From: a virus
Lineage: Duplodnaviria; Heunggongvirae; Uroviricota; Caudoviricetes
Length of the DNA: 12,136 nt
IMG/VR virus record: IMGVR_UViG_2711768053_000017
Coordinates: 1 to 12,136 of that record
Strand: one strand, 5' to 3'
Made by a program: the position numbers and the translations under genes. The notes beneath the pieces are model-generated. The model saw only the letters and a program-made list of their open reading frames with translations, was not told the origin of the DNA and searched no databases. This document shows positions 1 through 11,918 of the stretch, in pieces. Positions within the stretch are counted from its first letter, which is position 1, and every line of letters starts with the position of its first letter.

Positions 1-252
1 TTACCATATTTCGTCACCCGCAGGGGTGGATTTACCCCAGACATCCTGCTCGCTAAGTTCCGCGGCGTTCATGTCACACTGTGCCAGCAGTTCATCAAGC
101 GAGTAGCGCCTGGAGATGGGTGTCAGAATCAGTTGGTTGTTGCTCACCTGCGCTTCCACGCTCTGCCCCGGCTGTAAGTTAAGTTCTTTCATTACGATAT
201 TGGGAATGACCATACCTGCACTGTTCCCCCATCTTTTTATGGTAATACGCAT
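1..252 (-). CDS. chpS: MazE/ChpS-family antitoxin (AbrB/SpoVT-fold), 83 aa; toxin partner expected left of the window
   Basis: Translation MRITIKRWGNSAGMVIPNIVMKELNLQPGQ...YSLDELLAQCD...GDEIW matches my recollection of E. coli ChpS and carries the MazE-family KRWGNS motif. AAGGAGG Shine-Dalgarno lies about 6 nt upstream of the ATG at 252; the GTG at 258 in the ORF track sits directly on the SD and is unlikely to be the start. Stop codon is at 1-3. Confidence 0.7.
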   Translation of the reverse strand: MRITIKRWGNSAGMVIPNIVMKELNLQPGQSVEAQVSNNQLILTPISRRYSLDELLAQCDMNAAELSEQDVWGKSTPAGDEIW

Positions 253-266
253 CTGCACCTCCTTAA

Positions 267-542: not shown

Positions 543-1538
543 TTATGGGCAATATCTGGACAACTCAGCCACAGGATTAAAGCGCACAGCATCCTGCAGA
601 TAATCCGGTGCAAAATGGGCATAAGTCATCGTCTGCTGAATAGTGCTATGCCCAAGTATTCTCTGCAAAGTGATGATATTCCCGCCATTAATCATGAAGT
701 GAGTGGCAAAGGTATGCCGTAAAACATGTATCGACTGCCCTTCAGGAAGATCGGGCCTCACCTTTCTGATAGCCGTTCTGACAGCGGCATAACTCGGATA
801 AATTAAACGACCAGTAGCCTTAGTCTTAATCATGCACTCCAGTTCTGACGATATAGGTATAACGCGACGCTTCCCATTTTTTGTTTCCATAAAAATGACT
901 TTGCCGCTAATAACATGCTCCCCCTTGATATTTGCAACTTCACTCCATCTTCCACCTGTTGCCAGACACAACAAGACGGCTTTTAATTCATCACCAGATA
1001 ACAACTCCAGTAATCGTGGAATATCTTCATGATACAAATAAGCCATTTCAGGCTGTTTGATATTAAGTTTTTTCACATCATGAAACGGATTAACCCCAGA
1101 ATATTCCTCTGCGTCAATTAGTTTTGTGAAGAAACCACTCATCATTGCGCAATAACGATTAACCGTGGATTGTTTTATTCCGCGGTTAAGCAACAATAAC
1201 CGATAATTAATTATGTTCTTACGAGTAAGTTGGTCACTGCGTGTAACATTAATACTTTCAAGATCACTAATGACCGCAGAAATACGCACTCGCTCCATCG
1301 CACCGTAAGGATGGTTTTTCCCATGGTATAGCCACCAACAATCCAGCAACTCCCTCAGCGAGCGCCGTTCTGTTGGCTTATCAACCCAGTCTTTGTCGTG
1401 GTAATGCTGCAATACATGACGCTCATACAAAACAGCCTCACCACGAGTATCAAATCGCCGCCTGAATCTCTTTCCTTCTGATCCAGCAGGCCGCACGTCC
1501 ACACAAAATTTGCCATTAGCGAGCTTCTTAATCGACAT
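543..1538 (-). CDS. int: Tyrosine recombinase / phage integrase, P2-type, 331 aa
   Basis: Translation MSIKKLANGKFCVDVRPAGSEGKRFRRRF...LRHTFATHFMINGGNIITLQRILGHSTIQQTMTYAHFAPDYLQDA closely parallels P2 Int (arm-binding N-terminus, R...HxxR...Y catalytic signature). GGAGGG SD lies 7 nt upstream of the ATG at 1538; the longer ORF from 1574 lacks an SD. Confidence 0.9.
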   Translation of the reverse strand: MSIKKLANGKFCVDVRPAGSEGKRFRRRFDTRGEAVLYERHVLQHYHDKDWVDKPTERRSLRELLDCWWLYHGKNHPYGAMERVRISAVISDLESINVTRSDQLTRKNIINYRLLLLNRGIKQSTVNRYCAMMSGFFTKLIDAEEYSGVNPFHDVKKLNIKQPEMAYLYHEDIPRLLELLSGDELKAVLLCLATGGRWSEVANIKGEHVISGKVIFMETKNGKRRVIPISSELECMIKTKATGRLIYPSYAAVRTAIRKVRPDLPEGQSIHVLRHTFATHFMINGGNIITLQRILGHSTIQQTMTYAHFAPDYLQDAVRFNPVAELSRYCP

Positions 1539-1604
1539 AAGGAAGCCCTCCAATGAAAACATCATCTTGATCACAGCTCTGGGAAATAAATGCCTGGTGA
1601 ACCG

Positions 1605-1898
1605 TTAACCAGTTTTCTTGCCGGAGCGGGATGATTCCGCTTCGCCTTGCCCAATGTGTGCGAGAGCCGGTACAACCTGCCCGGCCTTGGGTTCAACTTC
1701 ATCAAACAGAAACCAGTCGCGGTATTTAGAAAATCTCGGGTGCTTGAAAAGCTTGATAGTGATCTCGAGGCCAGGAAGGTTACGACCATACTCATAACTG
1801 GTCAGAGCAGAATAAGAAATTCCAATCATATCAGCGAATTCCCGCTGAGTGAGATCTTCAGATTTGCGCATGACGCGAATTTTTTGAGGAATGTCCAT
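1605..1898 (-). CDS. C: Immunity repressor, P2 C-type (HTH), 97 aa
   Basis: Translation MDIPQKIRVMRKSEDLTQREFADMIGISYSALTSYEYGRN...PALAHIGQGEAESSRSGKKTG parallels P2 C (..LMRKSE..L....G..Y..LS.YE.GR...PALAHFGQNETTSPHSGQKTG). AGGAG SD lies 8 nt upstream of the ATG at 1898; it sits downstream of int on the same strand as in P2. The ORF-track start at 1970 is an unsupported N-terminal extension. Confidence 0.85.
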   Translation of the reverse strand: MDIPQKIRVMRKSEDLTQREFADMIGISYSALTSYEYGRNLPGLEITIKLFKHPRFSKYRDWFLFDEVEPKAGQVVPALAHIGQGEAESSRSGKKTG

Positions 1899-1940
1899 TT
1901 GACAAACTCCTACATATGTGTAGATTAACACCACATATGA
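1899..1940 (+). promoter_or_regulatory. Candidate early rightward promoter (Pe-like) with two direct-repeat operator half-sites flanking the -10
   Basis: Consensus -35 TTGACA (1899-1904), 16-nt spacer, -10 TAGATT (1921-1926). 8-bp direct repeats TACATATG (1911-1918) and CACATATG (1932-1939), 21 bp apart, flank the -10. That is the operator layout described for P2 C repressor, which binds two direct repeats flanking the Pe -10. Confidence 0.5.
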
Positions 1941-2012
1941 ACAGCAAACAAATGTTCTAAGTGGTTCCAACTAGTGCCAATTAGAAAGAGCACCAATGGC
2001 GGAGGATATCAG

Positions 2013-2438: not shown

Positions 2439-2476
2439 TTGCTTTATTGTTAACACATTATTTTCGTCGCCGTTAT

Positions 2477-2506
2477 TTCAAACACGGGCAGTTAGTGGGC
2501 TATATC
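2477..2506 (+). promoter_or_regulatory. Weak candidate sigma70 promoter ahead of the AT-rich cassette
   Basis: TTCAAA (2477-2482), 18-nt spacer, TATATC (2501-2506), about 37 bp upstream of the ATG at 2543. Match to consensus is only moderate. Confidence 0.25.
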
Positions 2507-2542
2507 ACACTGCCTGAATGAGTTAAAAGAGGTAACAGTAGA

Positions 2543-3151
2543 ATGAATCACAAAAATAAAGCGCTACTGGAACGACTGGAAACCCTGAAAAACGAAAAAC
2601 CACACCAGAAGCTTTTGCTGGTTTTTCCGGGCAAACCACAGGTTGAAATCAGCATTGACTACCACGAATTACACAGAACGTTCGCTGACCTGATGGCATT
2701 TAAATCAAAGCTTCAGAATGGCGAAGATTTGAAAGATGCCACCCTGCATCCCGACGATGAATACGGCCATTTTTGTCGGGATAACGCAAAGGGAACGTTC
2801 GGATTGGTTTTAGAACCAGTATGCGGCGTCATGCTCAGGTTTCCTGCCGAAGAAGCATTTGAACTTTATCGACAGATTATGGATGACGAATCAATGCTCA
2901 TTAAAGAAACAGCAGACTGTACATGCGCTAACACTAAACCGTACATTTATGCTGGCTCATACACTGATGAAGAACTGATAAATTTTTTGGAAACCGTTGT
3001 AGCAGAATTGAAATGCCGCAACAGGTTACCACTAAGACAACAACAATTACGGCATGAGTTAGAGGCCTACCAGGCTGAAATAGATAGAAACAATGAGTTT
3101 CTTAATTCAGTCGTGTATCGGCAGGATAAAAATCCCAAGCAGAATCCTTAA
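2543..3151 (+). CDS. Hypothetical protein, 202 aa, in AT-rich accessory cassette
   Basis: Long ORF with AAAGAGGT SD about 9 nt upstream of the ATG; no family recognised by eye. Noticeably AT-richer than the flanking phage backbone. Confidence 0.6.
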   Translation: MNHKNKALLERLETLKNEKPHQKLLLVFPGKPQVEISIDYHELHRTFADLMAFKSKLQNGEDLKDATLHPDDEYGHFCRDNAKGTFGLVLEPVCGVMLRFPAEEAFELYRQIMDDESMLIKETADCTCANTKPYIYAGSYTDEELINFLETVVAELKCRNRLPLRQQQLRHELEAYQAEIDRNNEFLNSVVYRQDKNPKQNP

Positions 3152-3569
3152 AGTGCAACAGACTTTCATCTTCATAACTTAAATCAGGCATTGGAGATGA
3201 GAGCTCGTGCTTATAAAGAATCTGGATACGCTCGGATACATGCTCTGGTATTACATATGCATTAATATCATTCCAGAGAACAATAAGTATGTCATGGAGA
3301 CACATATTTTTGGCATCAGACAATGAAACACCCTTTTGGGTGAAAAGATAATGATAAAGCACATTTTTTCCGAAGAGGACTACACACTTGGAATCAATAT
3401 TTCTTCGATACTCGACAAGTAGCAAATCCAATTTAAGGAGAATTAATGCTCGAGTAGCAACAAATGCTGAGTTGGCTGTTTCTTTATCCAGCACATCACG
3501 ATAGGATTCAGCAACTCGCTCGCAGTGTTTTTCAAAAATTCGCAGACACACAAAAGCATCTAATTCCAT
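3102..3569 (-). CDS. Hypothetical protein, 155 aa, convergent with and overlapping the 3' end of the 2543-3151 gene by 50 bp
   Basis: AAGGAG SD 6 nt upstream of the ATG at 3569 (MELDAFVCLRIFEKHCERV...). The ORF-track extension to 3722 is a Cys-rich low-complexity stretch without an SD, so the shorter start is preferred. No recognisable motif. Confidence 0.6.
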   Translation of the reverse strand: MELDAFVCLRIFEKHCERVAESYRDVLDKETANSAFVATRALILLKLDLLLVEYRRNIDSKCVVLFGKNVLYHYLFTQKGVSLSDAKNMCLHDILIVLWNDINAYVIPEHVSERIQILYKHELSSPMPDLSYEDESLLHFKDSAWDFYPADTRLN

Positions 3570-3710
3570 AACAACTCCTTTGTGGTTGGTTAAACACGCG
3601 CCCTTTACAGCCCCTTCAAGACTGCGGGCGGTGGAAAAATACCACAAAACCATGCGCCGGGCATGGCTAAAACCCGGCACAAATTCGCAACAGCAGCAGG
3701 ATATTTTTGT

Positions 3711-4061
3711 ATGAAGCAACAACGAAATTCTTCACAGCAACGCTTCCGCAACGGGGCGGAACGCCACGCTAACCGTTTCGCCACCAGTGCATCACGCAGC
3801 AGCTCTCGCTACAGCCTGAGCGAAACACACGCCACACCTGATGGCCATCCCGTAAAACAAATTGGTGAACACACCTGGCTGATTGAGAAGGCTGGAATCG
3901 TGGTCCACAAATGCCCGCGCAATCCGTTCACCGGAAACCGCATTTTTGAACTGATCAGCGGCGACAATCACCTCGGGCAGGATTTCACATTGTACGAAGC
4001 ACTACGCACGGTTGATCGTCTGCTTCGCGGGCAAAATTTTATTAAACAGACTGATTTATAA
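3711..4061 (+). CDS. Hypothetical protein, about 116 aa (start uncertain; 3663 is the alternative)
   Basis: ORF with a plausible globular C-terminal half (…WLIEKAGIVVHKCPRNPFTGNRIFELISGDNHLGQDFTLYEALRTVDRLL…), but the N-terminal part is S/R-rich and neither candidate ATG has a convincing SD. Confidence 0.4.
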   Translation: MKQQRNSSQQRFRNGAERHANRFATSASRSSSRYSLSETHATPDGHPVKQIGEHTWLIEKAGIVVHKCPRNPFTGNRIFELISGDNHLGQDFTLYEALRTVDRLLRGQNFIKQTDL

Positions 4062-4361: not shown

Positions 4362-4604
4362 ATGGATAAAGAATATAAAACTCTCGTCAATAAAGCACTT
4401 GAGCGTTTTCATTTTCGCTTAAGCGCATCAGGCACTCATGCTGAGCTCGCAGCCCGAGAGTCATTGACCAGGGCCATCAAGAGTATATACGACACGGCTT
4501 TTTACATTGACGATCCGGACGCACTCGACGAGCTTTCCATACTCGTCTGCGCCGCAGAAAACGGGCATCACATTGAACCGTATAACCTGGGGAGTATCGC
4601 GTGA
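4362..4604 (+). CDS. Hypothetical small protein, 80 aa
   Basis: ATG at 4362 with AAGGG about 7 nt upstream; tightly spaced after the previous gene. No family recognised. Confidence 0.5.
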   Translation: MDKEYKTLVNKALERFHFRLSASGTHAELAARESLTRAIKSIYDTAFYIDDPDALDELSILVCAAENGHHIEPYNLGSIA

Positions 4605-4714
4605 GCATATTTATTTCATGGCTTGTTCTGATTATTTCGGTGGCCTGCGCCATTGGGATTATGCGAATTATTCATTCAGTAAAAAAGATTGAACGCTTTT
4701 TCACTGGTGAATAA
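4601..4714 (+). CDS. Small hydrophobic single-TM peptide, 37 aa, not in the ORF track (below its length cutoff)
   Basis: GTG start at 4601 overlaps the upstream stop (GTGA) and is preceded by GGGGAG 6 nt upstream. Translation (M)SIFISWLVLIISVACAIGIMRIIHSVKKIERFFTGE is one predicted transmembrane helix followed by a basic tail. Confidence 0.4.
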   Translation: MSIFISWLVLIISVACAIGIMRIIHSVKKIERFFTGE

Positions 4715-4807
4715 CAGCACAAATAAAACACCAGATTAAATAAGAAAACGTGAAAACCATCCGTATTAACGGAGGTATTCGCACACGCAAATAACGGAGA
4801 TACAAAA

Positions 4808-5218
4808 ATGCACGCAAAAGAAGAAGGTATCATCAGAGCACTGAAAGAAATTTCAAAGACAGAAAACGAAGTAGCGAAAAAAGCCATAGCAAATAATCAT
4901 ATGGACGTCGCAACCCACACACTGATAGTCGCAAGAGTTACGGCAGAAGCAGCCGAAATTATCGCAAAACAGGATGCTGAACTGGCGGTTCTCAGAACAC
5001 AACCAATCACCGGGCTGGATTTGTCTAACACCGGACGCCTTATTTACACAATTGGCTCGGAGCTACAGCGATACACCATTATCGCCGGATTACAGGATAA
5101 ATACCTGATCACTCCTCACCCCATAAGGGAATCAGAAATTCTGACAAATCTCCGCCTGATAGAGCGCTCTCAAGTCGCATTCATTGATGACGCACAGCGC
5201 ACCGCATTTAACGCATAG
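4808..5218 (+). CDS. Hypothetical protein, 136 aa
   Basis: ATG with ACGGAG SD about 8 nt upstream; clean ORF with ordinary composition; no family recognised. Confidence 0.55.
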   Translation: MHAKEEGIIRALKEISKTENEVAKKAIANNHMDVATHTLIVARVTAEAAEIIAKQDAELAVLRTQPITGLDLSNTGRLIYTIGSELQRYTIIAGLQDKYLITPHPIRESEILTNLRLIERSQVAFIDDAQRTAFNA

Positions 5219-5236
5219 GGTTACTGGACAAAAAAA

Positions 5237-5245
5237 GGGGGGGGG
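5237..5245. repeat. Homopolymeric G9 tract (preceded by A7) 2 nt upstream of the start codon of the 5248 operon
   Basis: Counted directly: A at 5230-5236, G at 5237-5245, then CA and the ATG at 5248. The tract doubles as the only purine-rich SD-like element for this start codon. Confidence 0.9.
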
Positions 5246-5247
5246 CA

Positions 5248-5451
5248 ATGGCAATTAAGCGTTTTTCCGTCATTCGTTTCGCATCCAGAGGGCGTGAATA
5301 CGAAGTTGACGAACGGCTGATTAAAACGCTCGACCGTCACCGTTCGCAACCTGACGCGCATCACATTTATCTCACTGACGACACTTACTTCTGCGCCACC
5401 AACGTGGTGCAGGTGAACCTTATCCGACACGTACAGGAGTCACGCAGATGA
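5248..5451 (+). CDS. Hypothetical small protein, 67 aa; first gene of a translationally coupled four-gene operon
   Basis: ATG directly after the G9 tract; its stop overlaps the next start (ATGA). No family recognised. Confidence 0.5.
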   Translation: MAIKRFSVIRFASRGREYEVDERLIKTLDRHRSQPDAHHIYLTDDTYFCATNVVQVNLIRHVQESRR

Positions 5452-5666
5452 ACAGAAGGAGAATTACACGCAGACATCGCCGTACACGCCTGAGCTCCCC
5501 GCCAACACTAAAGGGACTCATTCAAAGCGAGATCGGTGATTTCTTCGCTGGATTTGGATCACCTGGCGAACCAGAAACACCTGAAGCGATGCAGCGCGAA
5601 CTCATGATGCGCATCGATAACGTTTTTGACTTTTTCCTGAATAACAAAAGAGAGCAACCGACATGA
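5448..5666 (+). CDS. Hypothetical small protein, 72 aa, with a strongly basic N-terminus (MNRRRITRRHRRTR)
   Basis: ATGA overlap with both the upstream and the downstream gene supports real, coupled translation. Confidence 0.5.
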   Translation: MNRRRITRRHRRTRLSSPPTLKGLIQSEIGDFFAGFGSPGEPETPEAMQRELMMRIDNVFDFFLNNKREQPT

Positions 5667-5875
5667 ACGAAAAGACCTGGTTTCGCGCATACATGTGGGC
5701 GCTGGTATGCGTCCTCGTCTCTATCATTCTGTATGCAGGACTACTCCCCCGAATGATCTCATCAGACAGCTCCTTCCTGGTATTGCTGGGCATTTTTGTT
5801 GCCTTGCTGTACCCGGCGGGCGTTGTCCGCTTTTTCAGTAACTACATCAAAGCAATTATGGAAACCAAACAATGA
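5663..5875 (+). CDS. Small integral membrane protein, 70 aa, two predicted TM helices
   Basis: Hydrophobic segments AYMWALVCVLVSIILYAGLL and FLVLLGIFVALLYPAGVV; ATGA overlaps on both sides. It sits immediately upstream of the SPFH gene, like the NfeD-type membrane partners of SPFH proteins. Confidence 0.6.
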   Translation: MNEKTWFRAYMWALVCVLVSIILYAGLLPRMISSDSSFLVLLGIFVALLYPAGVVRFFSNYIKAIMETKQ

Positions 5876-6696
5876 AAAAACTATTACCACTCATCCCTCT
5901 CCTGATGACCACACTTCTGGTTGGCTGTGACCGCGTGGAGCCGGGCAATGTAGGCATCAAAGTCAACAAACTGGGCGACGATAAAGGCGTCGGTGAAGTG
6001 GTTGGCGTTGGTCGCTACTGGACAGGCTGGAATACCGAGGTTTACATCTTCCCGACCTTCAAACAAATGAAGACCTACGATGAGCCGTTCAGCTTTCAGA
6101 TGAGTGACGGCACAACCATCGGCTATCACATCGGTGTAGCCTACAAGGTTGATCCATCCAAAGTTACTACAGTGTTTCAGACCTACCGCAAAGGCGTGGA
6201 CGACATTACCGACACTGACCTGCGCCAGAAGATCGCCGATGCACTCAACCGACTGGCCAGCAAAATGACCACCGATAAGTTTATCGACGGTGGTAAGTCT
6301 GAACTGCTGGATTCAGCACTTAAAGACATTCAGGCAGAAATGACACCTATCGGCATTCAGGTAATGAGCCTCTCTTATGTCGGTAAACCGGAATACCCGC
6401 CAACCGTGATCGACAGCATTAATGCCAAAGTCACAGCGAACCAGAAAACCCTGCAACGCGAACAGGAAGTCAAGCAACGCGAAGCAGAAGCCAACATGCT
6501 GCGCGCAGAAGCTGCCGGACAGGCTGATGCCATTCGCACAAAAGCCCAGGCTGAAGCCGACGCCATTCGTTTACGCGGTGAAGCTCTGCGCCAGAATCCC
6601 GGCGTTATGGAGCTGGAAGCAATCAACAAATGGAACGGCACGCTGCCGCAATACATGACCAGCAATACCGCTGTTCCGTTTGTTCCGGTGAAGTAA
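5872..6696 (+). CDS. SPFH/band-7 (HflC/stomatin/prohibitin-like) lipoprotein, 274 aa, predicted inner-membrane anchored
   Basis: N-terminal signal peptide with lipobox LLVGC followed by Asp at +2 (inner-membrane retention signal). The C-terminal Ala/Glu-rich coiled-coil (LRAEAAGQADAIRTKAQAEADAIRLRGEALRQNP...LEAINKW) resembles the HflC/HflK C-terminal region. ATGA-coupled to the upstream membrane protein. Confidence 0.65.
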   Translation: MKKLLPLIPLLMTTLLVGCDRVEPGNVGIKVNKLGDDKGVGEVVGVGRYWTGWNTEVYIFPTFKQMKTYDEPFSFQMSDGTTIGYHIGVAYKVDPSKVTTVFQTYRKGVDDITDTDLRQKIADALNRLASKMTTDKFIDGGKSELLDSALKDIQAEMTPIGIQVMSLSYVGKPEYPPTVIDSINAKVTANQKTLQREQEVKQREAEANMLRAEAAGQADAIRTKAQAEADAIRLRGEALRQNPGVMELEAINKWNGTLPQYMTSNTAVPFVPVK

Positions 6697-6702
6697 TTAA
6701 AC

Positions 6703-6748
6703 CCGGCCAGCGAAAATCGCTGGCCGGAGCAGTATCAGGATTTTTTTT
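6703..6748 (+). terminator. Candidate rho-independent terminator after the SPFH operon
   Basis: Perfect 10-bp stem CCGGCCAGCG / CGCTGGCCGG with a 5-nt loop (6703-6727), starting 7 nt after the stop codon, followed by a T8 run at 6741-6748. The T-run is 13 nt from the stem, which is non-canonical. Confidence 0.4.
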
Positions 6749-6775
6749 AGTATGCCGTTCTCACAAAAAAACCGC

Positions 6776-6886
6776 TTGCCATGCCGCAATCAGTCAGGTT
6801 ACATTTCCGCTGCACCTCATAAAACGGGTGCCGGGATTTCCACCCCGCTGACAACCAAAGCGCACAACCGCGCCAGCGGTTTTTTT
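6776..6886 (+). promoter_or_regulatory. Candidate promoter plus hairpin/T7 element: possible short transcript (about 75 nt) or attenuator-type leader
   Basis: TTGCCA (6776-6781), 18-nt spacer, TACATT (6800-6805); downstream a stem CCGCTG (6845-6850) / CAGCGG (6874-6879) enclosing an inner GCGC-N6-GCGC hairpin, followed directly by T7 (6880-6886). Confidence 0.25.
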
Positions 6887-7065
6887 GTGCGTACCGTATC
6901 GCCACGTCTTTTTCGCACACGAATTATGGTGGGGCGTATGGGGCCGACTTCGGTCGGGCCGGGTTCTTTGGTTGCCGGTTGTGGAAACCCTGTACGTCTC
7001 ACCACCCCGAGTTTTCCACCTCTGGATGGTGAGTTTTCAAAACTTACAACCAAAGAGGCCACACC

Positions 7066-7296
7066 ATGGCAAACCGCAAACAGCACCGCGCTATCGCGGA
7101 GCGTCGTCACATCCAGACTGAAATCGACCGCAGACTCACCCGCGCTGCACACATCGCCTTTATCATGCAATCCAACACATTGCACAGACTCAACAGCACT
7201 ATTTCAGCCGACTACTGCGCCGCTGTATTCAGCTATCTGGCGGAAGACCTCCTGTCTCTTCAGGACCTTATCCAGCAGCAAAACAAACTCCATTAA
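7066..7296 (+). CDS. Hypothetical small protein, 76 aa, basic N-terminus (MANRKQHRAIAERRHIQTEIDRR)
   Basis: AAAGAGG SD 7 nt upstream of the ATG; the sequence reads as a genuine protein, unlike the overlapping 206-aa ORF at 6752-7372. Confidence 0.55.
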   Translation: MANRKQHRAIAERRHIQTEIDRRLTRAAHIAFIMQSNTLHRLNSTISADYCAAVFSYLAEDLLSLQDLIQQQNKLH

Positions 7297-7368: not shown

Positions 7369-7734
7369 ATGATTCTCGCCAACGACTTTCTTGAATACCT
7401 GCTCAATACAGAGCGTGATCTTGCCGTTCGCGTGCGTGACCGTTATGACATGTACCTGAAATCCCTGCCTGTACCGCAGCTCGCTGACGGAAAGATTGTT
7501 ATTGATGGTCGCTACATGATCGACAGCCATGAGGGAAATTACAGGCTTTACCGCATTGAAGGTGGCACCCCGTCCGTTATTGGCATTTACCAGCGCCCAT
7601 CCTCTGCAATCGTCGATGTGATTGCCGACAGCATCCGCATCACACATCGCCATGCCGACACAGAAGACACCGTGCTGGAAATTCAGCGTCTGGCTGCCGT
7701 TTGCCGTGACACCCTGAACGGTATGACGAAGTAA
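7369..7734 (+). CDS. Hypothetical protein, 121 aa, immediately upstream of gene A
   Basis: AAGAGGA SD 8 nt upstream of the ATG; its stop is 6 nt before the gene A start. No family recognised. Confidence 0.6.
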   Translation: MILANDFLEYLLNTERDLAVRVRDRYDMYLKSLPVPQLADGKIVIDGRYMIDSHEGNYRLYRIEGGTPSVIGIYQRPSSAIVDVIADSIRITHRHADTEDTVLEIQRLAAVCRDTLNGMTK

Positions 7735-7740
7735 ATCAGT

Positions 7741-10563
7741 ATGACGACAGAGTACATCAGGGACTGGCAACAACCACGCCACGCAGTAGGGCGTGAAGGT
7801 ACGGGGATCCCCGCACCTGAATCCGCGCTTTCCTCCTGGCTGGATGCCTACCGGGTAGAGAACGAGCGCCGCCAGGAAATGGCTGATGCGGCGTTCTCCG
7901 CCACGCCGCTGGGCAACCTGATTAATAAAAGCCTGGACGCACAGGAAAAACAGGACAAAACCATCACACTGGCAGGAGACGCCAGAAAACAGGCACGCGG
8001 CGCGCTGGATGAAGCCATGGCCTCGCTGCGCCTGCTGCCGTCCTATCTGCGCGATCCGCTTATTCGCCACCTCTCCTTCCTGCGCAAAAAACAGGAAGCC
8101 GATCGCCGGAAAGGCAAAAAGAGCTGGCAGGCGGAACGCTATGCACGCGGAACCCTGCGCAAAATATTCGAACGTCTGGATCGCACTGACGGACGCTGGC
8201 TGACACCGGGTTATCGCTCCCTTGCCGGACGCGAACGCCTGGACGATTTGCTGTACCTGCCGCAGCTCAACAAACACCAGATACAGACACTGGCCACCAT
8301 GACGGCGGCAATGTTCAGCAGCACCTTCGAGACACTCTGCGATGGCTTTGGCGCGACCGATGGTGAGCTGACCATGGAAGTGGCGCTGAAGACGTATCAG
8401 ATGCTGGCCCGAATGGCGTTACACCTGCACGCCATTCCGCCACATTATGACGCACTGACAACAGATAAAGACCGGAGGAACGAACCGGACACGGAGCTGC
8501 TGCCGGGCGCAATCCTTCGCCTGACCTGTGCGGAATGGTGGAAACGCAAACTGTGGCTGTTACGTTGCGAGTGGAGAGAAGAACAACTCCGCGCCGCCTG
8601 TCTGGTTTCCAGAAAAACATCACCCTATCTGAGCCAGGACGCGTTAAGCGAGTTTCGCGCACAGCGCGAGAAAACACGCGATTTTCTGAAAAGTTTCATG
8701 CTGGAAAACGAAGACGGGTTCACGATTGATCTCGAGACAGTGTATTACGCGGGAGTAAGTAACCCGGTTCACCGTAAGGCAGAAATGATGGCCACCATGA
8801 AGGGGCTGGAACTTCTGGCCGAAGCCCGTGGCGACAAAGCGGTGTTTCTGACTGTCACTACCCCTTCGAAGTACCACGCAACAACGGAGAACGGTCATCC
8901 GAACCCCAAATGGAACGGGGCCACCATGCGCGATTCCAGCGATTACCTGGTTAACACGTTTTTTAAGGCGGTCCGCAAAAAACTGAACCGCGACGGCCTG
9001 CGCTGGTATGGCATTCGCACGGTGGAGCCTCACCATGACGGCACCGTGCACTGGCACATGATGGTCTTTGCACATCCTGAAGAAATCGACAGCATCGTGG
9101 ACATCACCCGTGATATTGCCATTCGCGAAGACCGCCACGAGCTGGGCGATGACATAACTCCGCGTTTTAAGGCAGAGTACGTCGACGGTTCGAAAGGTAC
9201 GCCGACCAGCTACATCGCCACCTACATCGGAAAGAACCTGGACAGCCGCGCCGTGGATGGCATTGACCCGAAAACAGGCAAACCGCGCATCGACGACGAA
9301 TCAGGAAAGACGATGGCAGAAAGCGTGGAACGCGCCATCGGCTGGGCGCGCCTTCACCGGGTCCGCCAGTTCCAGTTCTTTGGCATCCCCTCCCGTCAGG
9401 TGTGGCGTGAACTGCGCCGCCTTGCCTGTCAGATGGCACGTAACCCACAGGGACCGCAACGTCTGGAAAATGACGCAATGGATGCGGTTCTTGCTGCCGC
9501 TGATGCCGGATGTTTTGCCACCTACATAGAGAAACAGGGCGGCGTGCTTGTTCCACGCAAAGACTACCTGATTCGCACCGCCTACGACCTCGCAGATGAG
9601 CTGAACGATTACGGCGAACAGAGCGTACAGATTTACGGGATCTGGTCACCACTCATCGGGGAATCCTCCCGTGTGTGCACGCATCCGGATAACTGGAAGC
9701 TGGTAAGACGCAAACCGGAAGCGGAAGACAGCGCCCGCGAAAATGGTTTTGACCTTCAGGGCGGCCCTGCCGCCCCTTGGACTCGTGGCAATAACTGTCC
9801 CCGTGTACAGGAAACGGACAACAACGGGACAGAACAGCCGGAAGAACGGCCAGCACCGTGGCCGCAGCTTCCTGACGGCGTTGATGTGGATGAATGGATG
9901 CGCTCACTGAAACGGCACGAACGCCGGGCGCTGATGCGTTCGCTTCGTGACAAACAGGCAAAAAACATCAGTGATGAAATGCAGAACTGGACACAGAGCC
10001 GCAAACAGCCACAGCCTTTGCCTGATAACCACGAGTTACTCGCTAAAGAATGGCGGGAGTCTGCTGAATCTCTCGGCCTGCATATCGGTGAACAGCAGAT
10101 GCAGCACCTGTTACGGGGCGGCAGTCTGTACGTTGACGGCAGCATCATTGCACCGCAGGGATTTGAAATTGTACGCAAACCGGATACCCGCCCGGACAGC
10201 CGAATCACGCAGCTCTGGCAACGCCTGAGCCGTAACCACGGCGTAAGCAGCACGGAGATCCGCCATAACCCGGTCGCCAGCTATCTGGAACAACTAGGGG
10301 CATCAGACCCCGAAGCCGCCGCACGCCTGGCATCCACACTTCAGCAGGACCAGAACACCATGAAAACCCCCGTTACCGTGCTTTCTGACATGCTGCGCGC
10401 CATCCGCGACGCAGAGCACGCACAGAGAATCAGTGAAACCACTGAACGCGCCCACCGCAAAGCAGACCTGCTGCGGGGTAGCCTGACCAGTGGAAACAAA
10501 AAACAGACAGAAACGGGATTCACAAATCCCGTAAATGAGCAAAAAACGTGCCATAAAACATGA
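7741..10563 (+). CDS. A: Rolling-circle replication initiator, P2 gpA family (HUH endonuclease), 940 aa
   Basis: HUH motif VEPHHDGTVHWHMMVF (H-W-H at 9049-9057) and twin catalytic tyrosines YIATYIGKN (Y codons at 9211 and 9223), as in P2 gpA (VEPHHDGTPHWHMM, YIAKYISKN). The start at 7741 has a weak SD and may be coupled to the upstream gene. Confidence 0.9.
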   Translation: MTTEYIRDWQQPRHAVGREGTGIPAPESALSSWLDAYRVENERRQEMADAAFSATPLGNLINKSLDAQEKQDKTITLAGDARKQARGALDEAMASLRLLPSYLRDPLIRHLSFLRKKQEADRRKGKKSWQAERYARGTLRKIFERLDRTDGRWLTPGYRSLAGRERLDDLLYLPQLNKHQIQTLATMTAAMFSSTFETLCDGFGATDGELTMEVALKTYQMLARMALHLHAIPPHYDALTTDKDRRNEPDTELLPGAILRLTCAEWWKRKLWLLRCEWREEQLRAACLVSRKTSPYLSQDALSEFRAQREKTRDFLKSFMLENEDGFTIDLETVYYAGVSNPVHRKAEMMATMKGLELLAEARGDKAVFLTVTTPSKYHATTENGHPNPKWNGATMRDSSDYLVNTFFKAVRKKLNRDGLRWYGIRTVEPHHDGTVHWHMMVFAHPEEIDSIVDITRDIAIREDRHELGDDITPRFKAEYVDGSKGTPTSYIATYIGKNLDSRAVDGIDPKTGKPRIDDESGKTMAESVERAIGWARLHRVRQFQFFGIPSRQVWRELRRLACQMARNPQGPQRLENDAMDAVLAAADAGCFATYIEKQGGVLVPRKDYLIRTAYDLADELNDYGEQSVQIYGIWSPLIGESSRVCTHPDNWKLVRRKPEAEDSARENGFDLQGGPAAPWTRGNNCPRVQETDNNGTEQPEERPAPWPQLPDGVDVDEWMRSLKRHERRALMRSLRDKQAKNISDEMQNWTQSRKQPQPLPDNHELLAKEWRESAESLGLHIGEQQMQHLLRGGSLYVDGSIIAPQGFEIVRKPDTRPDSRITQLWQRLSRNHGVSSTEIRHNPVASYLEQLGASDPEAAARLASTLQQDQNTMKTPVTVLSDMLRAIRDAEHAQRISETTERAHRKADLLRGSLTSGNKKQTETGFTNPVNEQKTCHKT
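10513..10532. promoter_or_regulatory. 20-bp palindrome ACGGGATT-CACA-AATCCCGT, copy 1, inside the last codons of gene A
   Basis: Perfect 8-bp inverted arms seen directly in the sequence; an identical-arm second copy lies 73 bp downstream. Confidence 0.5.
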
Positions 10564-10639: not shown

Positions 10640-11599
10640 ATGAAAATTTGTATCGACGACGGCTCCACCAACATAAAGCTGGCATGGACTGAGAACGGCA
10701 AACGCCGCAACGCCATCAGCCCGAACAGCTTCAAGTCGGAATGGTCTGCGCCGTTCGGTGGCACGCAGCCCGCGAACTACATGCTTGATGGCGTGCGCTA
10801 TGGTTTTGATCCGGTCAGCGATCGCTTTGTCCAGACGACCGACACGCAATACCAGTACAGCGATGTGAATGTCATTGCCATTCATCATGCGCTGGTCAAA
10901 TCAGGCATCACGCCACAGGAGGTGGATGTGGTTGTCACCCTGCCACTGAGCGAGTATTTCGACACAAACGCACAGCCGGACATGGCCAACATCAACCGCA
11001 AAAAAGCGAACGTTATGCGCCCGGTGGAGTACCAGAACGGCGAGGCATTCACTATCCGTAACGTGCGGGTTATGCCTGAATCCATTCCGGCTGGCTTTAA
11101 AGCACTGGCTGACATGAGTCCGTTTGAATCCCTGCTGATTGTGGATTTGGGCGGAACCACGCTGGATGTGGCAAAGGTTCAGGGGCAACTGGCAGGTATC
11201 AGCCAGGTGTTTTGCGATCCACACGTAGGCGTTTCTCTGATGGCTGATGCCGTGCTGTCGGTGATGGCCACTAACGGTATGCGTACCAGTCACCACATCG
11301 CCAATACCATTATTGAGCACCGTCACGATGAAGCCTGGCTACGCCAGCACATTCACAATGACGCGCATTACAACAGCCTGATGGCGGTTATTCGTGAAAA
11401 GGAGGAGACACTGAAACAACGCGTGATCCGCGCGCTGGCGGGTTTTTCGGGTTACGGGCGGGTGATGGTTGTAGGTGGAGGAGCGGAGATTGTGGCACCC
11501 GCTATCCGCGAAGCCTGCGGAGTTAATGCGACTTTCATCGCGGACGGGGTGCCACAGTTTGCTCTGGTTAATGGGCTGTACGCAATGGATAAGGAGTAA
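10640..11599 (+). CDS. parM: ParM/StbA-family actin-like ATPase, 319 aa
   Basis: N-terminus MKICIDDGSTNIKLAW matches the ParM signature (R1 ParM MLVFIDDGSTNIKLQW). Further shared blocks: SPNSFK, YSDVNV..HHAL, TLPLSEYFD, NRKKAN, VMPESIPAGF, LLIVDLGGTTLDV, GVSL, VGGGAE, LVNGLY. Length matches ParM (about 320 aa). AAGGAAAAG SD upstream. Confidence 0.85.
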   Translation: MKICIDDGSTNIKLAWTENGKRRNAISPNSFKSEWSAPFGGTQPANYMLDGVRYGFDPVSDRFVQTTDTQYQYSDVNVIAIHHALVKSGITPQEVDVVVTLPLSEYFDTNAQPDMANINRKKANVMRPVEYQNGEAFTIRNVRVMPESIPAGFKALADMSPFESLLIVDLGGTTLDVAKVQGQLAGISQVFCDPHVGVSLMADAVLSVMATNGMRTSHHIANTIIEHRHDEAWLRQHIHNDAHYNSLMAVIREKEETLKQRVIRALAGFSGYGRVMVVGGGAEIVAPAIREACGVNATFIADGVPQFALVNGLYAMDKE

Positions 11600-11603
11600 A
11601 TCA

Positions 11604-11918
11604 ATGACGACACCAACCAGACGAATAAGTTTCTATCTGAAGCCCGCCGTCGTCAAGAGCGAACGGGAGGCGTGCAGTTACCTCGACAGCCTGCCAGCCT
11701 CCGAACGCAGCCGCGCACAACGCGCGGCTTTTCTGGCTGGACTGGCTCTTATAAAACGCGCCCCCGCGTTGGCGTATTCGCTGGCAGAATGGTCAGAAGA
11801 CGAAATACGAATGCCACCGCCACCAGTACAGCCTGAAAAACCGGCGCAACCAGCAGCAGACAGCGCCCCCCATATGCAGCAGGTGAAAAAGAATATTCAG
11901 GCGTTTTTCCCGAAGTGA
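11604..11918 (+). CDS. parR: ParR/StbB-like small DNA-binding protein (likely ribbon-helix-helix), 104 aa
   Basis: RRISFYLKPAVVKSEREACSYLDSLPASERSRAQRAAFLAGLALIKRAP parallels the R1 ParR N-terminus as recalled (RRTIAFKLNPDVNQTDKIVCDTLDSIPQGERSRLNRAALTAGLALYRQDP). AAGGAG SD 7 nt upstream, 4 nt after the parM stop. The ORF-track extension from 11475 overlaps parM in another frame and is rejected. Confidence 0.65.
   Translation: MTTPTRRISFYLKPAVVKSEREACSYLDSLPASERSRAQRAAFLAGLALIKRAPALAYSLAEWSEDEIRMPPPPVQPEKPAQPAADSAPHMQQVKKNIQAFFPK

What the first reader, a model, noticed from the sequence alone, without database searches (positions are those of the whole stretch)
5248..6696. Four-gene, translationally coupled operon ending in an SPFH/band-7 inner-membrane lipoprotein inside a P2-like early region
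Three consecutive ATGA start/stop overlaps (5448, 5663, 5872) link a 67-aa protein, a 72-aa Arg-rich protein, a 70-aa 2-TM membrane protein and a 274-aa lipoprotein. The lipoprotein has a lipobox LVGC with Asp at +2 and an HflC-like Ala/Glu-rich coiled-coil C-terminus. A small membrane protein next to an SPFH protein recalls NfeD-SPFH pairs, but here the unit sits as a moron between cox and gene A of a P2-type phage and is followed by its own hairpin/T-run. P2 itself has no such genes at this position as far as I recall. HflK/HflC-type SPFH proteins modulate FtsH, so a phage-borne copy could plausibly affect lysogeny decisions, superinfection exclusion or membrane-based abortive infection. I do not recognise this four-gene arrangement as a named system.
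Basis: partly seen in the sequence, partly recalled or inferred. Interest (0 to 1): 0.75.

Follow-up and report, generated by a model that had tools for sequence, protein, structure and literature searches.

The report
Phage membrane-hairpin plus SPFH lipoprotein module
The four genes are real, but the conserved unit is only the last two: a tiny two-helix membrane protein plus a lipid-anchored SPFH (HflK/C-like) protein, a pair carried by hundreds of temperate and virulent phages and by about 13% of E. coli genomes, with no tested function.

Summary
ORFs lie at 5248-5451, 5448-5666, 5663-5875 and 5872-6696, joined by three ATGA overlaps. The 274-aa protein is a Band_7/SPFH protein (Pfam E 7.5e-31) with lipobox LVGC (Cys19) and Asp at +2.

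The window is a P88-like (P2-family) prophage. Genes 1-2 are lineage backbone genes that occur without the SPFH gene in phage Chuche and E. coli 2013C-4538.

Genes 3-4 form a separable two-gene module. The same pairing, with a conserved turn motif Y-G-x-x-x-P-x-[LM]-[IV]-S-[SA]-x-[DS]-[ST], occurs in P1-like, Stx and 186-like temperate phages and in virulent N4-like, rV5-like, Aeromonas and Pseudomonas phages. In about 18% of the distant family representatives I could parse, the two proteins are fused into one polypeptide.

The small partner is not NfeD. PADLOC finds no defence model. No promoter consensus precedes the genes, and they sit inside the early lytic operon. The predicted fold matches cage-forming SPFH proteins (erlin, prohibitin, HflK/C). 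dN/dS of the mature protein is 0.01-0.03.

The most likely reading is a periplasm-facing, inner-membrane SPFH cage with a hairpin partner, made early in lytic growth. Its client is unknown. The family is catalogued (PHROG 200/1130), and genome papers have already speculated about an HflK/C-type role.

The parts
5248..5451 (+). Gene 1: a 67-aa soluble protein of unknown function (phrog_3459). It is a backbone early gene of the P88/Chuche lineage, not part of the conserved module.
   Evidence: ORF. PHROG hit E 3.8e-41. Present in P88 and Chuche with dN/dS 0.23-0.29. Found in 345 E. coli genomes, more than carry the module.
5448..5666 (+). Gene 2: a 72-aa protein with an Arg-rich N-terminus and a C-terminal region homologous to the C-terminus of the P88 'Ead/Ea22-like' protein (phrog_4144). 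It is a backbone or variable gene, not part of the module.
   Evidence: E 3.3e-27. One search shows the shared SPGEPETPEAMQ..RIDNVFDFF motif. The same 72-aa ORF is in Chuche. PGAP calls it a pseudogene fragment. P88 has a wHTH gene plus a full-length Ead-like gene here instead.
5663..5875 (+). Gene 3: a 70-aa two-TM hairpin inner-membrane protein (phrog_1130). TM1 is aa 10-28, the tight turn is P29-R-M-I-S-S-D-S-S37 (nt 5747-5773), and TM2 is aa 37-55. Both termini are basic, so they are predicted to be cytoplasmic. It is the conserved partner of the SPFH lipoprotein.
   Evidence: motif conserved across distant phages. Searches show natural fusions with the SPFH protein. No NfeD hit.
5872..6696 (+). 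Gene 4: a 274-aa SPFH/Band-7 lipoprotein precursor (phrog_200). The signal peptide and lipobox span nt 5872-5928 (Cys19, Asp20 at +2). The SPFH domain starts 2 residues after the lipidated Cys. A long helix spans 177-241, and the conserved C-terminal motif is AINKWNGTLP.
   Evidence: Pfam Band_7 E 7.5e-31. PHROG 200 E 3.9e-111. AlphaFold model with pLDDT 72. Foldseek hits to erlin, prohibitin and HflK/C at E about 1e-13. Lipobox plus Asp+2 in 100 of 106 enteric relatives. dN/dS 0.008-0.033.
6703..6727 (+). GC-rich 11-bp hairpin directly after the SPFH stop codon. A U-run follows only at 6740-6747. It may be a weak or atypical terminator or an mRNA 3' stabiliser that marks the end of the module.
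   Evidence: -26.3 kcal/mol, z -5.0.

Best explanation
Window 5663-6696 is a two-gene accessory envelope module embedded in the early (cox-to-A) operon of a P88-like P2-family prophage. Window 5248-5666 holds two unrelated backbone early genes that are merely co-translated with it.

Shown or directly read from sequence: gene 4 encodes an SPFH/Band-7 protein with a lipoprotein signal peptide. Gene 3 encodes a 2-TM hairpin that accompanies this SPFH subfamily almost universally and is fused to it in many lineages.

Inferred: the lipoprotein is retained in the inner membrane. This rests on Asp+2, on sister variants that carry a TM anchor instead of a lipobox, and on fusions whose topology puts the SPFH part outside. 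Its SPFH domain faces the periplasm, the same topology as HflK/C. It oligomerises through its long helix into a dome or cage, as all structurally solved full-length SPFH proteins do. The hairpin supplies the membrane-spanning element at a 1:1 ratio; translational coupling and the fusions both point that way.

The module sits in repressor-controlled early operons of temperate phages and among early or middle genes of virulent phages. I therefore infer that it acts during lytic development rather than in the lysogen.

My committed guess for its job: it fences off a patch of inner membrane from the periplasmic side to control an inner-membrane client. The client would be FtsH-type quality control of phage membrane proteins or regulators (about 0.3), the DNA-entry route of superinfecting phages (about 0.25), or general membrane stabilisation (about 0.2).
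For: Identity: Pfam Band_7 at 108 bits; PHROG 200 and 1130; full-length Foldseek matches to erlin1/2, prohibitin, HflK/C, stomatin, flotillin and QmcA for the model.

Lipoprotein and inner membrane: lipobox plus Asp+2 in the window and in 100 of 106 close relatives; Cys invariant across 26-61%-identical phage homologues; TM-anchored sister variants L112 and L116-L122.

Partner: a hairpin ORF lies directly upstream in P88, a P1-like phage, N4-like S6, a Klebsiella 186-like prophage, rV5-like GAP31, Aeromonas Gekk3-15 and phiE125, with an unannotated copy in phiP27. It is present in 81 of 81 close loci, intact in 77 of them. It was auto-detected in 61 of 64 diverse IMG/VR loci, and all 8 exceptions I checked by hand also have it. 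It is also seen in Xenorhabdus, Morganella, Yersinia pMT1, Dyella, Pseudomonas, Caulobacterales and a spirochaete.

Fusions: 15-17 of 85 parsed full-length representatives at 50% identity have hairpin, basic linker, lipobox segment and SPFH in one polypeptide. The PHROG 200 profile has about 80 extra N-terminal positions.

Topology: the termini are net basic and the turn is neutral.

Separability: Chuche and E. coli 2013C-4538 have genes 1-2 but no module. Gene 1 is in 345 genomes against 145 for this module variant.

Early-operon context: no promoter-like site in 4600-6775 on the + strand; ATGA coupling; the P1-like copy lies in the C1-controlled ban operon region; the Klebsiella copy lies downstream of cII.

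Constraint: dN/dS 0.008-0.033 with dS up to 0.94.
Against: No experiment bears on location, oligomerisation or function. The +2 residue is not Asp in many non-enteric or virulent-phage homologues (E, Y, R, S, G, V), so some may go to the outer membrane. The Pasteurella prophage homologue-like protein PM0222 was reported in outer-membrane vesicles (PMC9872710). The model has only moderate confidence (pLDDT 72; C-terminal 28 residues below 50). Sequence similarity to HflK/C is weak (E 7e-4 against PDB; far below the TIGRFAM cut-offs), and nothing shows FtsH binding. Consensus promoter scans cannot exclude an internal promoter active in lysogens. Nearly identical mature SPFH proteins (95-97%) pair with hairpins only about 48% identical, so any specific contact must be limited to the short conserved motif. 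The representative library has no context, so I cannot say that the fusion proteins are phage-borne.
Confidence: 0.6

Rival explanations
1. Superinfection exclusion or anti-phage defence module. The hairpin and periplasmic SPFH lipoprotein block DNA entry or the envelope steps of incoming phages. They would act either from the prophage or early in lytic growth, as T4 Imm/Sp and T5 Llp do.
For: The module shows accessory, mosaic presence/absence in variable regions of P2-like, P1-like, Stx and 186-like phages. It is located in the envelope. Established knowledge: exclusion proteins are typically small inner-membrane proteins or lipoproteins, are expressed early, and also occur in virulent phages.
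Against: No PADLOC model matches any of the four proteins. No promoter was found that would express the module in the lysogen. No paper links SPFH to exclusion. The extreme purifying selection (dN/dS about 0.01) is unlike the rapid diversification usual for exclusion and defence proteins.
Confidence: 0.25
2. Phage-made HflK/C mimic that tunes FtsH and thereby the lysis-lysogeny decision (stability of CII-like regulators).
For: The predicted topology matches HflK/C. The best PDB sequence hit is HflK. Foldseek hits HflK/C-FtsH complexes at E about 1e-13 to 1e-12. One copy sits downstream of a cII gene in a 186-like Klebsiella prophage. The idea is published as speculation (PMC8540360, PMC10269572).
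Against: The pair is conserved in obligately virulent phages that make no lysogeny decision: N4-like S6, rV5-like GAP31 and Pseudomonas Clew-1. This caveat is already noted in PMC8540360. Scores fall far below the HflK/HflC equivalog cut-offs (24.8 against 134.4 bits). There is one SPFH gene, not a K/C pair. Erlin and prohibitin match as well as HflK/C does, so the fold does not single out FtsH.
Confidence: 0.15
3. All four genes form one functional system, as the finding's title implies.
For: Three ATGA overlaps point to coupled translation. The order gene 1, Ead-like gene, hairpin, SPFH recurs in P88-like prophages.
Against: Genes 1-2 occur without 3-4. Genes 3-4 occur without 1-2 in at least eight unrelated phage groups. 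P88 has a wHTH gene inserted between gene 1 and the Ead-like gene. ATGA overlaps are common throughout P2-type early operons (established knowledge).
Confidence: 0.04
4. Lysogenic-conversion or virulence lipoprotein displayed to the animal host, as reported for the prophage HflK/C-like protein PM0222 of Pasteurella multocida (a TLR1/2 agonist released in vesicles).
For: PMC9872710. The gene is frequent in pathogenic E. coli, Stx phages and ETEC prophages.
Against: The Asp+2 inner-membrane retention signal is nearly invariant in enteric copies. The module sits in the early lytic operon. It is present in virulent environmental phages of plant and water bacteria. TLR2 stimulation is a generic property of lipoproteins (established knowledge). 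I did not test homology of PM0222 to this subfamily.
Confidence: 0.05

Closest known systems
HflK/HflC (E. coli FtsH-modulating SPFH cage; PDB 7vhp/7vhq/7wi3/9cz2)
   Same: It has the SPFH1-SPFH2-long helix-C-terminal segment architecture. It is predicted to be anchored in the inner membrane with the SPFH domain in the periplasm. HflK is the best sequence-level PDB hit (E 7e-4).
   Different: It has a lipid anchor instead of an N-terminal TM helix. There is a single SPFH gene rather than a K/C heteropair. Identity is only about 16-18%, and scores are far below the HflK/HflC equivalog cut-offs. It has a dedicated 2-TM hairpin partner. It is phage-borne. FtsH interaction is untested.
SPFH-NfeD operons (QmcA-YbbJ of E. 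coli, PDB 8z5g; YuaF-FloT; PH1510-PH1511)
   Same: A small membrane-protein gene is translationally linked to an SPFH gene. Foldseek matches QmcA at E 1e-8. The logic of 'SPFH cage plus small membrane partner' is shared.
   Different: The partner has no NfeD/OB-fold domain (no Pfam hit at E<=0.1; only 70 aa). QmcA faces the cytoplasm, whereas this protein is exported. The partner's conserved element is a periplasmic turn of about 8 residues.
PHROG 200 'lipoprotein' and PHROG 1130 'membrane protein' families; RefSeq 'SPFH domain-containing protein' (phage P88 gp11-gp12, phiP27 L05, phiCbK gp180 'band 7 lipoprotein', phiE125 gp43-gp44)
   Same: Direct membership: E 3.9e-111 and 1.9e-21, and 99.6% identity of the mature protein to P88 gp12. 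This is the same gene pair.
   Different: None in kind. These are catalogue entries without a described function, and the pairing and fusion of the two families is not, to my knowledge, described in the papers I could search.
Small early-expressed phage exclusion proteins (T4 Imm, a 2-TM inner-membrane protein; T5 Llp and TP-J34 Ltp lipoproteins). This comparison is from memory, not tested here.
   Same: They are envelope-located, early-expressed and accessory, and they occur in both virulent and temperate phages.
   Different: There is no sequence or fold relationship, and none contains an SPFH domain. This is a functional analogy only.

Membership tests
SPFH / Band 7 superfamily (Pfam PF01145) | Band_7 domain scoring above the Pfam gathering threshold | tested here: met
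   108 bits against a 23.6 cut-off, residues 21-207 covering profile positions 2-176 of 176.
SPFH / Band 7 superfamily (Pfam PF01145) | SPFH alpha/beta fold followed by a long oligomerisation helix | tested here: met
   The AlphaFold model has strands at 19-93 and 162-174, helices at 95-160, and a long helix at 177-241. Foldseek gives full-length hits to erlin, prohibitin, HflK/C, stomatin and flotillin at probability 1.00. Model confidence is moderate (pLDDT 72).
SPFH / Band 7 superfamily (Pfam PF01145) | Assembly into a large membrane-attached ring or cage | not testable with these tools
   No multimer prediction or experiment was available. This is inferred from the fold and from dN/dS of about 0.01.
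HflK/HflC FtsH modulators (TIGR01933/TIGR01932) | Score above the equivalog cut-off | tested here: not met
   hflC 24.8 bits against 134.4, and hflK 22.7 bits against 159.4.
HflK/HflC FtsH modulators (TIGR01933/TIGR01932) | Two paralogous SPFH subunits encoded together | tested here: not met
   The window has only one Band_7 ORF. The neighbouring gene is a 70-aa hairpin.
HflK/HflC FtsH modulators (TIGR01933/TIGR01932) | Binding and regulation of FtsH | not testable with these tools
   This needs co-purification and substrate-stability assays.
NfeD-SPFH operon | The partner protein carries an NfeD C-terminal OB-fold domain (PF01957), with or without a ClpP-like protease domain | tested here: not met
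   No NfeD hit at E<=0.1; the only hit is a sub-threshold RseC_MucC match at E 0.067. The 70 aa are filled by two TM helices.
NfeD-SPFH operon | A small membrane-protein gene adjacent to and co-transcribed with the SPFH gene | tested here: met
   ATGA overlap at 5872-5875. The adjacency is conserved across phages.
Bacterial lipoprotein retained in the inner membrane | Signal peptide ending in the lipobox [LVI][ASTVI][GAS]C | tested here: met
   M1-KK, a hydrophobic core, then L16-V17-G18-C19. Cys is invariant in distant homologues. A lipobox is found in 106 of 120 close relatives.
Bacterial lipoprotein retained in the inner membrane | Asp at +2 (the Lol-avoidance signal of Enterobacteriaceae) | tested here: met
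   Asp20 in the window, and D at +2 in 100 of 106 close relatives. It is not conserved outside enterics. Actual localisation was not tested.
Known anti-phage defence systems (PADLOC-DB v2) | Match of any component to a defence-system model | tested here: not met
   Zero hits at E<=0.1 for all four proteins.
Moron (autonomous accessory transcription unit in a prophage) | Presence/absence polymorphism relative to sibling phages | tested here: met
   The module is absent in Chuche and E. coli 2013C-4538, which keep genes 1-2 and gene A.
Moron (autonomous accessory transcription unit in a prophage) | Own promoter and terminator, and deviant base composition | tested here: inconclusive
   There is no promoter-like site on the + strand before 6776. 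The hairpin is present but the U-run is offset by 12 nt. GC of 48-53% matches the flanks. Consensus scans are weak evidence.

The most novel reading that the evidence does not exclude
The hairpin plus lipid-anchored SPFH pair is an undescribed class of phage-encoded membrane device. It would be a periplasm-side SPFH cage that phages of both lifestyles build on the host inner membrane soon after infection, to trap or insulate a host inner-membrane machine such as FtsH or a DNA-entry or abortive-infection effector. That would make it a general phage counter-measure or exclusion system acting through membrane compartmentalisation. The recurrent fusions with a retained internal lipobox would further suggest a polyprotein that signal peptidase II cuts into the two partners.
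Probability: 0.25. Interest if true: 0.7.

Novelty: new variant of a known kind. Interest (0 to 1): 0.4.

Why it matters
SPFH cages (HflK/C, prohibitin, erlin, stomatin, flotillin) are now known structurally, but their clients and purpose in bacteria are mostly unclear. A compact phage version could be a simple handle on what such cages do: one SPFH gene plus a 70-aa partner, under very strong purifying selection and dispensable for the host.

For phage biology it is a frequent 'known unknown'. It appears in 576 of 50,697 phage records, in 713 of 5,426 complete E. coli genomes, in Stx phages and in P1-like and SSU5-like phage-plasmids. Genome papers guess repeatedly at an HflK/C-lysogeny role.

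Showing that the unit is a two-gene, sometimes fused, early-lytic module present in virulent phages narrows the hypotheses and defines the construct to test (window 5663-6696). If it proves to be only a membrane-stabilising accessory factor, the finding is of routine interest.

Tried and rejected
- P1 upl/plp. From memory I suspected the pair corresponded to P1 upl/plp. The P1 reference shows plp (125 aa) and upl on the opposite strand with no SPFH, so I rejected this. In P1-like phage Ro157c2YLVW the module instead occupies that variable slot between the tRNA genes.
- NfeD identity of the 70-aa protein. Rejected, with no hit.
- Defence system. PADLOC gave nothing for the four proteins or their neighbours.
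- Word-indexed homology search with the 70-aa protein. It found only 14 close E. coli relatives and added nothing. tblastn against phages and ORF inspection of fetched loci were the productive routes.
- NCBIfam. No family for genes 1-3, and only sub-threshold HflK/C/FloT hits for gene 4.
- Literature. Six full-text searches found no functional study of a phage SPFH protein, only annotation-level remarks. The P1 genome paper is not held.
- Promoter scans of the phiP27 and P1-like copies were uninformative.
- More distant SPFH homologues in Sphingomonas and Bacteroidales (25-29% identity, TM-anchored) showed no detectable hairpin ORF with my simple scan. I treat them as outside the subfamily, not as counter-examples.
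- I could not model a complex of hairpin and SPFH, because the structure tool takes single chains only.
Full report
**1. What is in the sequence**

The ORF list and the sequence confirm four consecutive + strand ORFs. They lie at 5248-5451 (67 aa), 5448-5666 (72 aa), 5663-5875 (70 aa) and 5872-6696 (274 aa), each pair joined by an ATGA stop/start overlap.
- The 70-aa product has two hydrophobic helices, aa 10-28 and 37-55.
- The 274-aa product begins MKKLLPLIPLLMTTLLVGC|D. That is a lipoprotein signal peptide with lipobox LVGC (Cys19) and Asp at +2.
- It matches Pfam Band_7 from residue 21 (108 bits, E 7.5e-31).
- A strong hairpin follows the stop codon (6703-6727; -26 kcal/mol, z -5). The U-run starts 12 nt further on, so it is not a textbook terminator.

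**2. Context**

The window is the left end of a P2-family prophage close to Escherichia phage P88 (Peduoviridae, Xuanwuvirus; about 92% DNA identity over the finding).
- 1-258 (-): a chromosomal MazE/ChpS-type antitoxin.
- 543-1574 (-): integrase.
- 1605-1970 (-): C-type repressor.
- 1974-2438: Cox.
- Then DUF4761, DUF4754 and other small early genes.
- 5248-6696: the four ORFs.
- 6812-6886: isrK, and 6922-7009: C4 antisense RNA.
- 7066-7296: a 76-aa 'derepression protein' ORF.
- 7369-7734: a 121-aa ORF.
- 7741-10563: the gene A replication endonuclease.
- After gene A: ParM and a ParR-like partner.

The promoter scan finds no sigma-70-like site on the + strand between 4600 and 6775. GC content across the four genes (48-53%) matches the flanks. 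The four genes thus read as part of the long early operon that runs from cox to A, which the C repressor silences in a P2-type lysogen (established knowledge of P2/186).

**3. The four genes are not one unit**

Phage Chuche and the prophage of E. coli 2013C-4538 carry gene 1 and the same 72-aa gene 2, with the same ATGA overlap. These are followed directly by the gene that precedes gene A. There is no hairpin gene, no SPFH gene, and no isrK/C4 block.

P88 has a wHTH gene and a full-length 'Ead/Ea22-like' gene between gene 1 and the hairpin gene. The window's gene 2 is homologous only to the C-terminal half of that Ead-like protein. PGAP even labels it a pseudogene fragment.

Gene 1 is found in 345 complete E. 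coli genomes, all at chromosomal sites. This variant of the hairpin+SPFH pair is complete in 145.

**4. The conserved unit is the pair of genes 3 and 4**

SPFH homologues occur in 576 phage records.
- Temperate: P88, P1-like phage-plasmids, Stx2 phages and phiP27, a 186-like Klebsiella prophage, Burkholderia phiE125.
- Virulent: N4-like Erwinia S6 and Klebsiella Pylas, rV5-like GAP31, Aeromonas Gekk3-15, Pseudomonas Clew-1/Pa222, Caulobacter phiCbK, and jumbo phages.

In every one I inspected, a small ORF abuts or overlaps the start of the SPFH gene. In most it encodes a 2-TM hairpin with a shared turn motif, Y-G-x-x-x-P-x-[LM]-[IV]-S-[SA]-x-[DS]-[ST]. This includes an unannotated copy in phiP27. 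Clew-1 has a one-helix protein there and phiCbK a three-helix one.

The counts are:
- 81 of 81 close loci have the upstream ORF; 77 are intact, 3 are disrupted and 1 is cut by a contig end.
- 61 of 64 automatically parsed diverse IMG/VR loci have it, and so do all eight 'exceptions' I checked by hand.
- It is also present in Xenorhabdus, Morganella, Yersinia pMT1, Pantoea, Dyella, Pseudomonas, Caulobacterales and a spirochaete MAG.

The hairpin's termini are net basic and its turn is neutral. By the positive-inside rule both ends are in the cytoplasm, and only about 8 residues reach the periplasm.

**5. Fusions**

An exhaustive HMMER search of 1.84 billion representatives found 2,863 relatives, 214 of them at E<=1e-30. 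I could parse 85 full-length ones. Of these, 15-17 are single polypeptides made of the hairpin with its motif, a basic linker, a third hydrophobic segment that still ends in a lipobox, and the SPFH domain.

The PHROG 200 profile likewise has about 80 extra N-terminal positions.

These recurrent fusions are classic evidence that the two proteins work together. Their topology (in, out, in, then export) independently supports a periplasmic SPFH domain. So do sister variants in which a TM helix replaces the lipobox (L112, L116-L122).

**6. The SPFH protein itself**

The AlphaFold model (34-sequence alignment, pLDDT 72) shows the SPFH sheet and helices followed by a 65-residue helix. Foldseek aligns it end-to-end with the subunits of solved SPFH cages: erlin1/2, prohibitin, HflK/C, stomatin, flotillin and QmcA-YbbJ (E 1e-13 to 1e-8).

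At sequence level only HflK is detectable in the PDB (E 7e-4). The HflK/HflC equivalog models score far below their cut-offs. It is therefore an SPFH-family member but not an HflK or HflC.

The Cys of the lipobox and a C-terminal motif, (A)I(N/E)KW(N/D)G.LP, are conserved down to 26% identity. Asp at +2 holds in 100 of 106 close enteric relatives but not in many non-enteric homologues.

The mature protein is under extreme purifying selection. dN/dS is 0.008-0.033 against the P88, P1-like and phiP27 copies, with dS up to 0.94. The signal peptide and the hairpin diverge much faster: the hairpin is about 48% identical where the mature SPFH is 97% identical.

**7. How it most likely works**

Shown or directly read from sequence: an exported, lipobox-bearing SPFH protein and a co-translated 2-TM hairpin partner form a separable, widely mobile two-gene module.

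Inferred:
- The lipoprotein stays on the periplasmic face of the inner membrane.
- It assembles through its long helix into a ring or cage, like every solved full-length SPFH protein.
- The hairpin provides the membrane-spanning element in 1:1 stoichiometry.

The module lies in repressor-controlled early operons: here; downstream of cII in a 186-like prophage; and in the ban-operon region of P1-like phages. It also lies among early or middle genes of virulent phages. I infer that it acts in lytic development.

The client is unknown. My ranking is:
- FtsH-type proteolysis of phage membrane proteins or regulators, about 0.3.
- Exclusion of superinfecting DNA, about 0.25.
- General membrane or proton-motive-force stabilisation, about 0.2.
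- Something else, the remainder.

A role confined to the lysogeny decision or to prophage-borne defence fits poorly with conservation in obligately virulent phages and with the absence of PADLOC hits.

**8. Comparison with what is known, and novelty**

The family is already catalogued. It corresponds to PHROG 200 'lipoprotein', PHROG 1130 'membrane protein', and RefSeq 'SPFH domain-containing protein'. Older records mislabel it 'serine protease' or 'transposase'.

The SPFH gene is found in 713 of 5,426 complete E. coli genomes, about half of the copies on phage-plasmids. Genome papers have already floated the HflK/C-lysogeny idea and noted the virulent-phage caveat (PMC8540360, PMC10269572). 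A 2026 paper still calls the role unclear (PMC13239085). I found no experimental study. The only functional work on a prophage HflK/C-like lipoprotein is the Pasteurella PM0222 virulence study (PMC9872710), and I did not test its homology to this subfamily.

Relative to the known SPFH-NfeD and HflK/C systems this is a variant. It has a lipid anchor instead of a TM helix, a single SPFH gene, and a non-NfeD hairpin partner that is sometimes fused. As far as my searches reach, the obligate pairing, the turn motif and the fusions have not been described.

**9. Verdict**

The finding is real and correctly identified as an SPFH lipoprotein. It is over-interpreted as a four-gene system and as a lysogen-expressed moron. 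It is a common, catalogued but functionally untested two-gene phage envelope module. Interest is moderate (0.4): not surprising to a phage genomicist, but a well-defined and easily testable unknown.

Noticed in passing
window 2440-3730: A low-GC (38-40%) insertion of about 1.2 kb lies between cox and the DUF4761 gene. It is absent from P88, where cox is followed directly by DUF4761. It holds two convergent ORFs, 2543-3151 (+, 202 aa) and 3102-3722 (-, 206 aa). Neither has a Pfam, NCBIfam or PADLOC match, and there is only a weak phrog_5286 hit. By composition and position it looks more like a classical moron or defence cargo than the SPFH module does.
   Followed up: partly
window 6776-7296: There are Rfam hits to the isrK Hfq-binding RNA (6812-6886, 64 bits, preceded by a promoter-like site at 6776-6805 and ending in a terminator at 6866-6881) and to C4 antisense RNA (6922-7009, 80 bits). 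A 76-aa 'derepression protein' ORF follows (7066-7296; phrog_3688; Pfam Derepression below cut-off). This is a P1/P7-immI- or Gifsy-1-like antisense/antirepressor cassette inside a P2-type early region. PGAP annotates the RNA region as an 'ash family protein' pseudogene in a near-identical prophage.
   Followed up: partly
window 5232-5247: A homopolymeric A7G9 tract sits immediately upstream of the gene 1 start codon, where P88 and Chuche have a normal AAGGAGG ribosome-binding site. It coincides with a recombination junction, since the upstream gene 4808-5218 differs from P88. It could be a slippage-prone tract or an assembly artefact.
   Followed up: no
window 5448-5666; L254 6282-6419; L253 3782-3919: RefSeq/PGAP treats the 72-aa gene 2 as a truncated pseudogene ('missing N-terminus'). 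Yet the whole ORF, including its Arg-rich N-terminus and its ATGA overlap with gene 1, is conserved in phage Chuche at about 83% DNA identity. It is probably a real short member of the Ead/Ea22-like C-terminal family.
   Followed up: partly
L002 (phiP27) about 2745-2935; L010 (Clew-1) 1953-2045: Annotation errors in public records. phiP27 lacks the hairpin ORF upstream of L05. In Clew-1 the SPFH gene start is called too far downstream, which cuts off the signal peptide and lipobox (ITAGC). Several records name the SPFH protein 'serine protease', 'transposase' or 'mobile element protein'.
   Followed up: yes
window 10640-11918: ParM (StbA_N/ParM, E 4e-82) and a ParR/StbB-like 'plasmid stability' protein directly follow gene A, as in P88. 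That is an actin-type plasmid partition system in an integrating P2-family phage.
   Followed up: no
window 1-258 (-) and 543-1574 (-): The left edge encodes a MazE/ChpS-type antitoxin (Pfam MazE_antitoxin, E 1.4e-11), apparently the chromosomal flank next to the prophage integrase. A near-identical early region in strain HNSQ2209 is instead integrated beside pheA with a different int/C/cox set, which shows modular exchange of the immunity and integration end.
   Followed up: no
P0138, P0144, P0150-P0153, P0160, P0161, P0174, P0179, P0185, P0203, P0218, P0237 (representative library): The fused hairpin-SPFH proteins all keep a lipobox after the third hydrophobic segment. Signal peptidase II might therefore cut them internally into the two partners, like a membrane polyprotein. 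Their genomic origin is unknown, because the library has no context.
   Followed up: partly
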